NCBI GenBank assembly: GCA_964510585.1
Contig: CAZECW010000065.1
Coordinates: 1-24,880, forward strand
Direction: 5' to 3'
Source: an uncultured archaeon
Lineage (GTDB): Archaea > Asgardarchaeota > Jordiarchaeia > Jordiarchaeales > Jordiarchaeaceae
DNA length: 24,880 bases
The translations under genes were made by a program, and so were the position numbers. Below the pieces are notes generated by a model that worked only from the letters and a program-made list of their open reading frames with translations, had not been told where the DNA came from and made no database searches. Within the stretch, counting starts at the first letter, position 1; every line of letters begins with the position of its first letter. Below are positions 11,894-14,049 of the stretch, one piece after another.

Positions 11894-12895
11894 TTACCAG
11901 TAAAACAGGGAGAACAGAAATATTCTAATCACCAATAGCGCTGAGAAAACCACAAGCCATACTGGAAATTTCCACCTCATAACTTTGAGGCCGTCTAGGG
12001 GTCCGAAAGGTAACATGTTGAATATTCCTATATCTGCGTTTATACTCGCCCCCACAATCAATATTTGATATAAGTTCACCTGCGAGAATAAAGATTGAAC
12101 AGTGGAATTTTGGAAAACAAAGGATAATCCGAGTAAAATTATGCCTAGTACCAAGTTAACTAAAGGTCCTGAAAGAGAAGTCTTGCCTACAGTATGCCAA
12201 TCGCTAGATCCAGAAATCATCACTGCGCCTGGCGCCAGGAACTTTAAAGGAGAAATAATGGAAACTAGTGTCACAAGAACCCCACTAAATATTAATCTAA
12301 ATTCTGCTCGAAGACCATACATTTCGGCAACAAATTTATGGGCGAATTCATGTAGTAGAAAACTCACCACAACAATGGCTCCTAACCACAAAGCATTATC
12401 GATTTGAAAGACCAGCAGAAAGTTTGACAACCATGGTACAAAAGAAACCAACCAGGTTAATCCACTGAGGACCATCCAGATAAGAGTTCCAAACACAAAA
12501 TTGCCCAGCCCACTACTCAAAACCCATACTACACTGTAAATTAAACTTGAAAACACAACAACCAAAACAATGAACGTGGCAATAGAGATATGGGCGACTT
12601 CCTTTTTTGAAGGCACTATTCTTGCCAATCTAGCAGCGGGCTTATCATATATGATGCGTTTCGGAACTATATCCCTATCAAAGGTTCTCTCCTCATGTTT
12701 TGTTTCCATCTTCGCTGGTGTTCTTCCCAATTTGTTCCCTTTTTCTGAAACTAAAAGCGTCGAAGTACAATTATGGTTTTCTGGGAGACGATGTTCTATG
12801 CAAAAGTAACCCCCACAATTTCGGCACCTGAAAGGTAGGTAGTCTTCCTTACCACAGAAATCACACTTGACCACTTCATAATCCTCCGCAACCAT
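11894..12895 (-). CDS. AN1-type zinc finger fused to M50 (site-2) intramembrane metalloprotease
   Basis: CDFCGKEDYLPFRCRNCGGYFCIEHRLPENHNC (AN1), HEFAH (HExxH), NMLPFGPLDG (NxxPxxxxDG) and multiple TM helices. Confidence 0.92.
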   Translation of the reverse strand: MVAEDYEVVKCDFCGKEDYLPFRCRNCGGYFCIEHRLPENHNCTSTLLVSEKGNKLGRTPAKMETKHEERTFDRDIVPKRIIYDKPAARLARIVPSKKEVAHISIATFIVLVVVFSSLIYSVVWVLSSGLGNFVFGTLIWMVLSGLTWLVSFVPWLSNFLLVFQIDNALWLGAIVVVSFLLHEFAHKFVAEMYGLRAEFRLIFSGVLVTLVSIISPLKFLAPGAVMISGSSDWHTVGKTSLSGPLVNLVLGIILLGLSFVFQNSTVQSLFSQVNLYQILIVGASINADIGIFNMLPFGPLDGLKVMRWKFPVWLVVFSALLVIRIFLFSLFYW

Positions 12896-13013
12896 CCGAA
12901 TTCATAAAACCTTAAACACTAAATAGACCAAACACCTCTTCAAGTCTTAGGGGAATTATAAAAAACAAAAATTTAAGTCTTTACCCCAAAAATATCCAAA
13001 AAGTTTCTTTTAC

Positions 13014-13290
13014 AAAACCTTGGCGAGAAAGCCCCCGACTTTAGTTGTGGTGATGAATCGCCAAAAAGCTTATTTGAAAGTAGGGTATACTAATAGTTGT
13101 TGGTAGCTGAAGGGTTTGGCTTGGGCTTAAGAGGCTAAACAAGACGCAGCCCCCATGAGGGTGCCAACATAGACGCCGTTCCCTTGAGGGAAGGGCGTGT
13201 TAACCGGGTGATGGCACACCCATTGCTTCCTAAGGCTCCCGATGAGCCAGAAGCAAGAATCCCCGCAACTTTAGTCGCGGAGAGTGTCAA
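13014..13290 (+). mobile_element. Non-autonomous IS200/IS605-family element (PATE-like; both ends, no tnpA/tnpB)
   Basis: Follows TTAC (13010-13013). Left-end stem TTGGCGA/TCGCCAA (13020-26/13058-64) encloses the hairpin CCCCGACTTTAGTTGTGG. Right end GAATCCCCGCAACTTTAGTCGCGGAGAGTGTCAA finishes in TCAA. TTAC and TCAA are the IS608-type cleavage tetranucleotides. Confidence 0.82.
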
Positions 13291-13306
13291 ACCCCTATCG
13301 AAGTCA
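13095..13306 (+). ncRNA. Candidate TnpB omegaRNA (reRNA) scaffold plus 3' flank-derived guide
   Basis: Nested stems TTGGC/GCCAA and GGGCT/AGCCC; hairpins ACGCCGTTCCC-TTGA-GGGAAGGGCGT, GGGTG-ATGGCA-CACCC and TTGCTTC..GGCTC-CCGAT-GAGCC.GAAGCAA; then the right-end hairpin. Both boundaries are estimates. Confidence 0.5.
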
Positions 13307-13430
13307 ATAATCTTTATTAAAAAAATTATAATAAACTTCGATAAGAAACATTGGACCTAAAAAGGTTCAAGTATATTTTTGGGTTTGAGACACATTTGAA
13401 GGGACGGGGAATCCCCTCAAAAAGGGGTCT

Positions 13431-13617
13431 CCATATGTTCAAGCCGCACTCCTATATTTGTGTGGGTTCCTTTTTTGCGGCTGGGCTCCCTGAAAAATTC
13501 TCCCAATTTTTAGCACGAATATGTATAAAAATGAGGGTTTAGGGGAATGGAGAAGCGGGGGGCCAGAACAGGGTCACACCACAAACCAGCCAATAGGAGT
13601 TTTGTTTGAATATATGG
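13431..13617. mobile_element. MITE copy A (187 bp)
   Basis: Imperfect ~22-bp TIRs (CCATATGTTCAAGCCGCACTCC / GGAGTTTTGTTTGAATATATGG) flanked by the direct repeat GGGTCT (13425-30, 13618-23). Confidence 0.72.
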
Positions 13618-13713
13618 GGGTCTTAGTCCTGGAGGTGAAAGAAGCACTATTTAGACTCCCTTTGCCAAAAGGGGGAATGATAGGGGAGAAAAACCAGTCA
13701 CAAAGGGCAGCAA

Positions 13714-13898
13714 CCATATGTTCAAGCGGTACTCCCATTTTGTGGGATTCTCTTTTTTTGTGGTTGAGTTCTTTTAGGGAAAATCCTAATTTTAGCACAA
13801 AAATGTGTAAAAATTGGGCTGAAGGGCATGCAGATGCGACGGGCCAGGGCTGGAACAGCACAAAAACCAGCCATATGGAGTCCTGCCTGAACATATGG
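13714..13898. mobile_element. MITE copy B (185 bp), same family as copy A
   Basis: TIRs CCATATGTTCAAGCGGTACTCC / GGAGTCCTGCCTGAACATATGG flanked by the 7-bp direct repeat GCAGCAA (13707-13, 13899-905). Colinear with copy A over its whole length. Confidence 0.8.
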
Positions 13899-14012
13899 GC
13901 AGCAAGTCAATCTGAGGATGTTCTCCAGCGATTTTTCACCGACCTTTTCACGACCAAAACCTTTTTCCTAACATCGAGATTAAAAATATATACAGAGCAG
14001 GTTATAAAAAAA

Positions 14013-14049
14013 TAAAAACAAATAAATTGGCTAAAAACAAATAAATTGG
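14013..14049 (+). repeat. Exact 18-bp direct repeat TAAAAACAAATAAATTGG x2 (period 19), just upstream of a putative TATA box
   Basis: Copies at 14013-14030 and 14032-14049, followed by TTAAAACATTATAA (14050-63) ahead of the ATG at 14098. Confidence 0.8.

What the first reader, a model, noticed from the sequence alone, without database searches (positions are those of the whole stretch)
13010..13310. Protein-less IS200/IS605 mini-element that looks like a self-contained omegaRNA (guide RNA) cassette
Seen: TTAC, a left-end stem-loop, an AT-rich promoter-like segment (AAAGCTTATTTGAAAG, ~13066-13080), about 190 nt folding into at least five stems, a right-end hairpin and TCAA. There is no tnpA or tnpB. 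One frame reads ..GRVNRVMAHPLL.., loosely reminiscent of TnpB tails (weak recall). Established: TnpB omegaRNA derives from the right end, its guide is the 3' flank, and its TAM equals the left target tetranucleotide. Inference: the element dropped the proteins but kept the RNA scaffold right behind a promoter. It could load a trans-encoded TnpB with guide ACCCCTATCGAAGTCA and target the empty allele TTAC|ACCCCTATCG, acting as a parasite of both TnpA and TnpB.
Basis: partly seen in the sequence, partly recalled or inferred. Interest (0 to 1): 0.75.

Follow-up and report, generated by a model that had tools for sequence, protein, structure and literature searches.

The report
Gene-less IS605 mini-transposon carrying guide-RNA scaffold
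This is one of about 70-80 copies of a 277-base, protein-free offshoot of an IS200/IS605 transposon in a hot-spring archaeon that keeps the transposon's promoter and the folded guide-RNA scaffold of its TnpB nuclease; it is a clean, well-documented example of a kind of element already described, not a new principle.

Summary
Window 13014-13290 (+) is a 277-nt mobile element inserted just 3' of TTAC (13010-13013), without target duplication. Two congeneric genomes carry the exact empty site, TTAC followed directly by the right flank.

The own genome holds 91 left-end and 75 right-end junctions, 90 of 91 preceded by TTAC, and 29 copies assembled whole.

- **Left end.** The first ~65 nt are ~95% identical to the left end upstream of tnpA in an autonomous IS (IS-A) in the same genome. 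They include what looks like the tnpA TATA box.
- **Right part.** The last ~125-145 nt are homologous to the 3' end of tnpB plus the right end. A degenerate reading frame (..VNRVMAHPLL..) matches the TnpB C-terminus.
- **Fold.** A covariance model of this region hits the window copy at 96 bits. Its four hairpins are kept by compensatory changes across 39 tnpB-linked and gene-less copies from many archaeal genomes.

[quoted passage not shown] Transcription and TnpB loading remain untested. Stand-alone omegaRNAs working in trans are already published (PMC10691335, PMC10055086).

This scan has reached the same conclusion before on other copies of this family in the same genome.

The parts
13010..13013 (+). 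TTAC target tetranucleotide. It is the left cleavage site for TnpA and the presumed TAM for TnpB. It is not part of the mobile DNA.
   Evidence: It stays at the empty sites of G003 and G004. It precedes 90 of 91 left junctions.
13014..13290 (+). The mobile element itself: 277 nt, no ORF. It is a PATE of an IS608-like IS200/IS605 family.
   Evidence: Absent exactly between TTAC and the right flank in G003 and G004. Boundaries are shared by 29 full copies with unrelated flanks. No ORF of 60 aa or more.
13028..13052 (+). Left end: AAAG (13028-13031) at the foot of an imperfect hairpin (13032-13052, CCCCCGAC / TTTA / GTTGTGGTG). This copy has two changes in the 3' arm against the family consensus GTCGTGGGG.
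   Evidence: Sequence; consensus of 29 copies; about 95% identical to the left end upstream of tnpA at C169, C7 and C162.
13086..13093 (+). TATA-like box: TATACTAA here, TATATAAA in most copies. It corresponds to the tnpA promoter of the parent IS.
   Evidence: In the parent (C169) the matching box lies about 26 nt before the tnpA ATG, which fits a leaderless mRNA. 58 of 84 copies carry TATATAAA. The genome encodes TBP, so it is an archaeon. The function is inferred.
13112..13152 (+). 5' hairpin of the presumed RNA. The start predicted from the TATA box (about 13113-13117) falls at its base.
   Evidence: RNAalifold on this family plus a PATE family with unrelated ends from G038 and G047: 15 pairs, 3 with compensatory double changes. 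Only two lineages, so support is moderate.
13154..13290 (+). 3' module of the omegaRNA-type scaffold. It comprises stem A (13173-13198), stem B (13206-13221), stem C (13223-13256), the GAAT linker (13257-13260), the right-end hairpin (13261-13282) and the tail AGTGTCAA (13283-13290).
   Evidence: Covariance model R1 hit: 96.4 bits, E 3e-25. Covariation across 39 distinct sequences. Homology to the tnpB 3' ends of IS-A and IS-B.
13170..13290 (+). Degenerate remnant of the tnpB 3' coding region. The frame reads ..HEGANIDAVPLREGRVNRVMAHPLL.., with a stop codon just upstream of that stretch.
   Evidence: Translation of the consensus compared with the TnpB C-termini of IS-A (..ALNIGAVYNGGHVNWAMAHPLEV) and IS-B (..DNWVVAHPLLL). 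tblastn with IS-B TnpB hits PATE copies.
13287..13290 (+). TCAA right cleavage site, the last four bases of the element.
   Evidence: All 29 full copies end in GTGTCAA. The junction is confirmed by the empty sites.
13291..13306 (+). Presumed 16-nt guide (ACCCCTATCGAAGTCA), which is the 3' flank of the element.
   Evidence: Inferred from the established omegaRNA layout. The same sequence directly follows TTAC at the empty sites of relatives, with 2 mismatches in G004 and more in G003.

Best explanation
Window 13014-13290 is a non-autonomous IS200/IS605 element (a PATE) of an IS608-like family.

**How it arose and moves.** An internal deletion removed tnpA and most of tnpB from an autonomous tnpA-tnpB element. 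Three things were kept: (i) both ends that the Y1 transposase TnpA needs, (ii) the tnpA promoter region, and (iii) about 180 nt of the tnpB 3' end and right end, which in this family fold into the TnpB guide RNA (omegaRNA) scaffold. TnpA made by the IS-A copies elsewhere in the genome excises the element as single-stranded DNA. It then re-inserts it 3' of TTAC.

**What the RNA most likely does.** Transcription from the retained TATA box probably gives an RNA of about 190-200 nt. It would start near 13113-13117 and run through the scaffold into the flank, so its last ~16 nt (13291-13306) form the guide. Loaded in trans onto a TnpB from IS-A or IS-B, it would direct cutting of the empty allele (TTAC plus the flank). 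The occupied allele would be spared, because TCAA sits where the TAM should be. That favours re-copying of the element and its retention.

**Shown here:**
- mobility and exact boundaries;
- ends shared with a tnpA-bearing IS;
- homology of the interior to tnpB 3' ends;
- the conserved, covarying fold;
- the presence of TnpA and TnpB genes.

**Inferred:** promoter use, transcript ends, TnpB loading, and cleavage.

This particular copy looks slightly decayed. It has two changes in the left hairpin, one mismatch in the right hairpin and a weakened TATA box.
For: **Mobility and boundaries**
- 138 matches in the own genome, with common ends and unrelated flanks.
- 91 left and 75 right junctions; TTAC before 90 of 91.
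- Exact empty sites in G003 and G004, 93-95% identical in the flanking gene.

**Family**
- AAAG and GAAT sit at the feet of the left and right hairpins, and the cleavage sites are TTAC and TCAA. As I recall it, this is the IS608 rule; the sequences themselves are seen.
- The left end is about 95% identical to the one upstream of full-length Y1_Tnp genes at C169, C7 and C162.

**omegaRNA origin**
- Consensus positions 112-279 align to the IS-A tnpB 3' end plus right end and to IS-B.
- A coding remnant matches TnpB C-termini.

**Fold**
- Model R1 hits the window at 96.4 bits and gives 86 matches in the genome.
- On 39 distinct sequences, tnpB-linked and gene-less, 89.8% of cells pair, against 65.6% in shuffles (0 of 500 reach it) and 42-59% when the partners are slid.
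- 28 of 30 pairs change on both sides.
- Gene-less families in G004 and in G038/G047 keep the scaffold although their frames are broken.

**Promoter**
- The TATA box lies at the same place as in the parent, where it sits about 26 nt before the tnpA ATG.
- TBP is present in the genome.

**Partner proteins**
- IS-B TnpB is an open 424-aa frame with OrfB_IS605 and Cas12f1-like_TNB domains. It has Asp in both the RuvC-I and RuvC-III motifs.

**Literature**
- Stand-alone omegaRNAs function in trans (PMC10691335, citing Altae-Tran 2021).
- PATEs often encode omegaRNAs (PMC10055086).
Against: - **No transcript is shown.** The only RNA-library record is one 217-nt contig at about 94% identity, from a different copy or organism. 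It has a different 5' part, and DNA carry-over cannot be excluded.
- **No curated RNA family matches.** Rfam gives nothing at gathering or permissive thresholds.
- **The scaffold differs from both resident nucleases' RNAs.** It is only about 75% identical to the IS-A scaffold, with indels. It lacks the ~60-nt insertion of IS-B in stem C, so compatibility with either resident TnpB is unproven.
- **IS-A tnpB is incomplete in the assembly.** It is assembled only as N- and C-terminal pieces, and one copy (C7) is frameshifted.
- **The TnpB catalytic site is non-canonical.** IS-B TnpB and its whole clade have Gly where the canonical RuvC-II Glu sits. Published models call this a rearranged but active site (PMC10691335), which is not tested here.
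- **Conservation among the ~75 copies says little.** It is mostly recent common descent, not selection.
- **This copy has defects.** The changes in the left hairpin, the right hairpin and the TATA box could make it immobile or silent.
- **The alignment favours the model.** The alignment used for pair counts was fitted to the model's own structure.
Confidence: 0.72

Rival explanations
1. Inert deletion derivative. The element is mobilised by TnpA, but the tnpB-derived interior is only passenger DNA left by the deletion. No functional guide RNA is made, at least not from this decayed copy.
For: - Identity of 92-97% among copies reflects recent spread, not constraint.
- The G004 family keeps only about 115 nt of the scaffold.
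- Seven copies lack the TATA box altogether, and this copy has a weakened one.
- This copy has hairpin defects.
- No transcript was shown.
Against: - TnpA needs only the subterminal hairpins. Yet three independent gene-less families, in G000, G004 and G038/G047, retain the upstream stems.
- Differences between these families, and against tnpB-linked copies, are largely compensatory, while the reading frames are destroyed.
- The deletion joins the scaffold to a promoter at a distance that puts the predicted start at the base of the 5' hairpin.
Confidence: 0.2
2. The conserved hairpins act in single-stranded DNA, for TnpA-mediated excision or integration or for replication-fork targeting, and not as RNA.
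For: - IS200/IS605 transposition uses single-stranded DNA hairpins at both ends (established knowledge).
- The right-end hairpin is one of the covarying helices.
Against: - Only the subterminal left and right hairpins are known TnpA sites. Stems A to C lie inside the tnpB coding region of the autonomous elements.
- G-U type pairs are frequent in stems A to C: for example UG in 8 of 12 sequences at one stem A pair and two G-U pairs in the IS-A stem C. These pair in RNA but are mismatches in DNA.
Confidence: 0.07
3. An unrelated structured non-coding RNA gene or regulatory element, such as an sRNA, riboswitch or CRISPR-like repeat, that only resembles a transposon.
For: The region folds well (z = -3.4). 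There are weak sub-threshold Rfam matches to CRISPR repeat models at E 0.49 and 6.4.
Against: - No Rfam family reaches threshold.
- About 75 dispersed copies at TTAC sites, exact empty sites in relatives, and ends shared with a tnpA-tnpB element all show a transposon.
Confidence: 0.01

Closest known systems
PATEs (palindrome-associated transposable elements) of IS200/IS605. They were named in Haloquadratum walsbyi (PMC3119063) and reported as omegaRNA-bearing in Geobacillus stearothermophilus (Meers et al. 2023, PMC10055086).
   Same: - Gene-less, a few hundred bases long and multi-copy.
- Keeps the left and right hairpin ends of an IS200/IS605 element in the same genome.
- Presumed to be mobilised in trans by TnpA.
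- Meers et al. state that PATEs often encode omegaRNAs that TnpB from other IS copies must act on in trans.
   Different: - The host is an archaeon with TBP and a eukaryote-like actin gene; earlier notes of this scan call it an Asgard archaeon.
- Copy number is high (about 70-80), against a handful of tnpA/tnpB copies.
- The scaffold sits directly behind the retained tnpA TATA box.
- The scaffold has diverged about 25%, with compensatory changes, from that of the resident autonomous IS.
Stand-alone omegaRNAs of OMEGA systems (Altae-Tran et al. 2021, as summarised in PMC10691335)
   Same: Mobilised omegaRNA loci without an effector or transposase gene, found in genomes that also hold effector-containing loci. 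They were shown to work in trans with compatible effectors. The guide is the sequence just outside the transposon end.
   Different: Trans function is not tested here. The likely partner TnpBs belong to a clade with Gly at the canonical RuvC-II Glu position, which the paper describes as a rearranged catalytic site.
IS608 of Helicobacter pylori (the IS200/IS605 prototype)
   Same: - Target and left cleavage site TTAC; right cleavage site TCAA.
- AAAG and GAAT tetranucleotides at the 5' feet of imperfect (bulged) left and right hairpins.
- Insertion without target duplication. I recall the IS608 side of this comparison from the literature and did not check it in a paper here.
   Different: IS608 encodes tnpA and tnpB, while this element encodes nothing. 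The sequences are otherwise unrelated, and the host is an archaeon.

Membership tests
IS200/IS605 non-autonomous element (PATE) | Insertion 3' of a specific tetranucleotide without target-site duplication | tested here: met
   Empty sites in G003 and G004 read TTAC followed directly by the right flank. TTAC precedes 90 of 91 left junctions.
IS200/IS605 non-autonomous element (PATE) | Subterminal imperfect hairpins at both ends, similar as direct repeats, instead of terminal inverted repeats | tested here: met
   Direct repeat D1, 13023-13053 against 13253-13283, contains the two hairpins. Both are conserved in 29 copies.
IS200/IS605 non-autonomous element (PATE) | IS608-type guide tetranucleotides at the hairpin feet: AAAG with TTAC, and GAAT with TCAA | tested here: met
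   AAAG at 13028-13031 and GAAT at 13257-13260. GAAT is invariant in the 12-sequence alignment. The rule itself is recalled from the IS608 literature.
IS200/IS605 non-autonomous element (PATE) | No protein-coding gene | tested here: met
   No ORF of 60 aa or more. All three forward frames of the consensus contain stops.
IS200/IS605 non-autonomous element (PATE) | Ends shared with an autonomous element that encodes a Y1 transposase in the same genome | tested here: met
   The left end is about 95% identical to the one upstream of Y1_Tnp genes at C169, C7 and C162. The last 24 nt of the right end are identical to IS-A at C8.
IS200/IS605 non-autonomous element (PATE) | Excision and insertion by TnpA supplied in trans | not testable with these tools
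   Supported only indirectly, by about 75 dispersed copies and by empty sites.
TnpB omegaRNA (OMEGA guide RNA) | Encoded by the 3' end of tnpB plus the right end | tested here: met
   DNA alignments to IS-A and IS-B. Coding remnant matches TnpB.
TnpB omegaRNA (OMEGA guide RNA) | Conserved secondary structure shared with tnpB-linked copies and supported by covariation | tested here: met
   R1 hit of 96.4 bits. 89.8% of cells paired against 65.6% in shuffles; 28 of 30 pairs have double changes. Caveat: the alignment was fitted to the model.
TnpB omegaRNA (OMEGA guide RNA) | Transcribed, with a 3' end about 16 nt beyond the right end | tested here: inconclusive
   One 217-nt contig in one RNA library covers 13137-13291 of a related copy at about 94% identity and ends 11 nt past the right end. 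Contigs cannot show RNA ends or exclude DNA.
TnpB omegaRNA (OMEGA guide RNA) | A compatible TnpB encoded in the same genome | tested here: inconclusive
   IS-B TnpB is an open 424-aa frame with both Pfam domains and with RuvC-I and RuvC-III Asp, but Gly at the RuvC-II position. IS-A TnpB is only partly assembled. Compatibility is untested.
TnpB omegaRNA (OMEGA guide RNA) | Guides TnpB to cut TAM-flanked targets that match the flank | not testable with these tools
   Needs biochemical or interference assays.
Any curated Rfam family | Score at or above the gathering threshold | tested here: not met
   No match at gathering thresholds in the window. Only chance-level matches at E up to 10.

The most novel reading that the evidence does not exclude
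The element could be a self-promoted guide-RNA gene that spreads on its own and exploits both TnpA and TnpB as shared goods.

- About 75 guide loci would stand against a handful of nuclease genes, so the PATE RNAs could dominate or titrate the cell's TnpB pool.
- Its 5' hairpin module is shared, at 73% identity with compensatory changes, with a PATE family that has unrelated ends in another family of the same phylum (G038 and G047).
- That sharing would mean omegaRNA scaffold modules are exchanged between transposon lineages, or are kept for a role beyond homing.
Probability: 0.15. Interest if true: 0.55.

Novelty: new member of a known kind. Interest (0 to 1): 0.3.

Why it matters
It gives a very clean natural example of a guide-RNA-only transposon derivative: exact empty sites, about 75 copies, a retained promoter and a covariation-backed fold. 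The host is an archaeon close to the eukaryotic lineage.

- It supplies a ready omegaRNA structure model for an archaeal TnpB clade with a rearranged catalytic site.
- It supplies about 75 natural guide/target pairs with a TTAC motif, which could be used to test trans-loading and homing.
- For annotation, it explains most contig breaks in this assembly.
- It also shows that the "intergenic" structure here is a transposon, not a host regulatory RNA.

The principle itself is already published.

Tried and rejected
- **Rfam.** Nothing at gathering thresholds. Sub-threshold CRISPR-repeat and sRNA matches (E 0.49 to 6.4) were rejected as chance.
- **Sigma-70 promoter scan.** Rejected as irrelevant, because the genome encodes TBP. 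Its one hit, at 13284-13311, is no better than in shuffles.
- **Public sequencing runs.**
  - Only one true RNA library held any of the element. It gave a single low-depth contig from a non-identical copy, so transcription is neither shown nor excluded.
  - No contig joined across the element, so these runs give no empty-site or excision evidence.
  - Summed contig depth over the repeat is not a copy number.
- **Exact 17-mer scan of all genome contigs.** The pattern was too short for that much DNA, and the 81 loci are almost all chance hits in unrelated bacteria. Of the four archaeal loci re-checked with the model, only two contigs of a Methanomethylicota MAG were real.
- **Search for the missing middle of IS-A tnpB.** Not in the assembly, so the intactness of IS-A TnpB could not be settled.
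- **Alignment upstream of consensus position ~150.** The local alignment of the PATE to IS-A and IS-B there is not trustworthy and was not used. Only the protein-level remnant supports homology that far.
- **Search for a tnpB gene carrying the PATE's own 5' module.** None was found in the 60 relatives searched by DNA.

Full report
**What is there**

Window 13010-13310 lies between two divergently oriented ORFs: 11894-12895 on the minus strand (AN1 zinc finger plus M50 peptidase) and 13521-14015 on the plus strand. The sequence shows the following, left to right:

| Feature | Coordinates |
|---|---|
| TTAC | 13010-13013 |
| AAAG | 13028-13031 |
| Imperfect left hairpin | 13032-13052 |
| AT-rich stretch with a TATA-like box | 13086-13093 |
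| Densely paired region | about 13110-13260 |
| GAAT | 13257-13260 |
| Second imperfect hairpin | 13261-13282 |
| Tail AGTGTCAA, ending in TCAA | ends at 13290 |

The two hairpin regions are direct repeats of each other (D1). There is no ORF of 60 aa or more. The plus strand folds better than its shuffles (z = -3.4).

**It is a mobile element with exact boundaries**

BLAST of the region against the window's own assembly (3.78 Mb, 217 contigs) gives 138 matches.

- 29 copies are assembled whole. All begin TTAC|AAAACCTTGGCGAG and end GGAGAGTGTCAA|, with unrelated flanks.
- Most other matches are about 140-nt stubs at contig ends, so this repeat causes most contig breaks.
- Counting junctions with the 279-nt consensus gives 91 left and 75 right junctions. 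Of these, 81 left and 69 right junctions carry the PATE interior, and TTAC precedes 90 of 91.

The orthologous locus in three congeneric genomes is 93-95% identical through the upstream gene and up to TTAC.

- In G003 and G004 the alignment jumps from TTAC straight to the window's right flank..TTTCTTTTAC|ACCCCCTATTGAAG.. and ..TTTCTTTTAC|GCCCCTATCGAAGCC...
- The mobile DNA is therefore 13014-13290 (277 nt).
- It inserted 3' of TTAC without target duplication.

**Family**

These features are those of IS608-type IS200/IS605 elements: TTAC and TCAA as cleavage sites, AAAG and GAAT at the 5' feet of bulged left and right hairpins, and no duplication. I recall the IS608 rule from the literature; the sequence features are seen here.

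The genome encodes full-length Y1 transposases (Pfam Y1_Tnp) at C169, C7 and C162.

- Each is preceded by a left end about 90-95% identical to PATE positions 1-65.
- Each is followed by a tnpB start (MKRTNTF..).
- The matching tnpB 3' end and right end lie at the starts or ends of C8, C45, C54 and C152. I call this element IS-A.
- The middle of its tnpB is missing from the assembly, and the C7 copy is frameshifted.

A second relative, IS-B on C81, has a degenerate tnpA fused in frame to an open 424-aa TnpB. That TnpB carries the OrfB_IS605 and Cas12f1-like_TNB domains.

**The interior is a tnpB 3' end**

- PATE consensus positions 112-279 align to the last 150 nt of IS-A, at about 75% identity with indels. 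The terminal ~45 nt are nearly identical.
- The same region aligns to IS-B.
- One frame of the PATE reads ..SPHEGANIDAVPLREGRVNWVMAHPLL... Compare IS-A ..HRDVAGALNIGAVYNGGHVNWAMAHPLEV and IS-B ..DNWVVAHPLLL.
- tblastn with IS-B TnpB hits PATE copies.

The frame is broken by a stop just upstream of that stretch and by deletions, so no protein is made.

**The fold is the conserved fold of this TnpB clade's 3' region**

I collected tnpB 3' ends from 30 genomes of the phylum, together with gene-less relatives. Single-sequence folds repeatedly give four hairpins, A to D, upstream of the cleavage site.

A covariance model (R1, 124 positions, 30 pairs) gave these scores:

| Target | Score |
|---|---|
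| IS-A copies | 126-130 bits |
| Most PATE copies | 104-110 bits |
| This window copy (13154-13290) | 96.4 bits, E 3e-25 |
| IS-B | 69 bits |
| tnpB-linked copies from other genomes | down to 22 bits |

There are 86 matches in the own genome.

On the 39 distinct aligned sequences:

- 89.8% of cells form standard pairs, against 65.6% in shuffles (0 of 500 reach it) and 42-59% when the partners are slid.
- 28 of 30 pairs show changes on both sides.
- Stem B, for example, reads GGGTG/CACCC, GGGCG/CGCCC, GGCTG/CAGCC, GGCTC/GAGCC or GGCCG/CGGCC in different lineages.

One caveat: this alignment was fitted to the model. The independent MAFFT/RNAalifold run on 12 sequences already showed 11 of 23 pairs with compensatory changes. 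G-U type pairs are common in stems A to C, which favours RNA over single-stranded DNA.

**Independent gene-less families keep the scaffold**

- G004, in the same genus, has a ~210-nt PATE with the same ends. It carries only the 3' ~115 nt of the scaffold, closest to IS-A.
- G038 and G047, in another family of the phylum, have a PATE with unrelated ends. Its interior is nonetheless 73% identical to PATE positions 97-186.
- Aligning that family with this one predicts a fifth, 5' hairpin (window 13112-13152). It has three compensatory double changes. With only two lineages, this is moderate support.

**Promoter**

The genome encodes TBP (two genes) and a eukaryote-like actin at 456 bits. It is therefore an archaeon, consistent with earlier notes of this scan that call it an Asgard archaeon. 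TATA-box promoters apply.

- In the parent IS-A (C169) a TATA-like box lies about 26 nt before the tnpA ATG, as expected for a leaderless mRNA.
- The PATE keeps the homologous box: TATATAAA in 58 of 84 copies, TATACTAA in this copy, and a TATA-less variant in 7 copies.
- The same spacing puts the start near 13113-13117, at the base of the 5' hairpin.
- The predicted RNA would then be about 175 nt of scaffold plus the flank-derived guide.

This step is inferred.

**Expression evidence is weak**

Of the public runs that hold the sequence, nearly all are hot-spring DNA metagenomes.

- One metatranscriptome holds a single 217-nt contig covering 13137-13291 at about 94% identity. It has a different 5' part and a different 11-nt 3' flank, so it comes from another copy or organism. 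Contigs cannot show RNA ends or exclude DNA.
- DNA contigs of two runs bridge the left junction of this very insertion.
- No contig joins across the element.

**Partner nuclease**

IS-B TnpB has the RuvC-I Asp (MDLGV) and the RuvC-III Asp (NAD, aligned to solved TnpB 9nzp). Like every homologue I aligned, it has Gly at the canonical RuvC-II Glu position. PMC10691335 describes large TnpB clades with exactly this Glu-to-Gly change. Structural models there predict an alternative Glu and retained activity. I did not test that here.

**This copy**

Compared with the consensus, the window copy differs at these points:

- two changes in the 3' arm of the left hairpin;
- one A-C mismatch in the right hairpin (it belongs to a CCGCGAC subfamily);
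- a weakened TATA box;
- C instead of T at 13205, next to stem B.

It scores among the lowest PATE copies with R1. It may be an older, less mobile or less expressed copy. The four 3' stems and the 5' hairpin are intact.

**Comparison with the literature and novelty**

- PATEs were named in Haloquadratum (PMC3119063).
- PMC10691335 summarises that mobilised stand-alone omegaRNAs occur alongside effector loci and were shown to work in trans.

Earlier follow-ups of this scan on other copies of the same family in this genome reached the same verdict, and my independent tests agree.

- empty-site proof at this locus;
- a covariation-backed model across archaeal tnpB loci and three gene-less families;
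- the link of the TATA box to the leaderless tnpA promoter.

I rate the finding a new member of a known kind, of modest interest.

Noticed in passing
window 13431-13617 and 13714-13899: Two copies, 71% alike, of a different ~187-nt repeat of MITE type. Its termini are inverted (CCATATGTTCAAGC ... GAACATATGG). Both are absent from the orthologous locus of G004. There are 5-8 copies in this genome and many in G004 and G003. They fill much of the 'ORF' 13521-14015, which is therefore probably not a gene.
   Followed up: partly
G001:C407 (L083) and G001:C396 (L087), orthologous to window 13010-13300: In G001 the sequence after the same TTAC is neither the right flank nor this PATE. Both contigs break there. 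This suggests that a different element inserted at the same TTAC site.
   Followed up: no
G000:C58:28221-28557, C107:6922-7233, C32:13043-13218, C21:221-398: A second, longer gene-less family (about 310-340 nt) in the same genome. Its scaffold is of the IS-B type, with a ~60-nt insertion in stem C. It scores 60-72 bits with model R1.
   Followed up: partly
G000:C81:5075-6787 (L090): IS-B has a degenerate tnpA remnant fused in frame to an open 424-aa tnpB that reads through the right-end hairpin to the last bases of the element. This TnpB and all 27 aligned homologues have Gly at the canonical RuvC-II Glu position.
   Followed up: partly
L046, L055, L061 (G038) and L047 (G047): A PATE family with unrelated ends (hairpins CCCCTCAAC../..GTTGAGGGG and CCACCTAAC../..GTTAGGTGG, ending GTTCAC). 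It shares a 90-nt interior module, at 73% identity, with the window's family. This hints at a common or exchanged scaffold module.
   Followed up: partly
L129:5266-5440 and L130:1-134 (Methanomethylicota MAG WYZ-LMO10): IS-B-like scaffold modules (86 and 71 bits with R1) occur in an archaeon of another phylum, so this IS lineage crosses archaeal phyla.
   Followed up: no
right junctions of all copies in G000: The first base after TCAA is A in 43, T in 17, C in 14 and G in 1 of 75 junctions. This could be a target preference beyond TTAC, or an ambiguity of one base at the right boundary.
   Followed up: no
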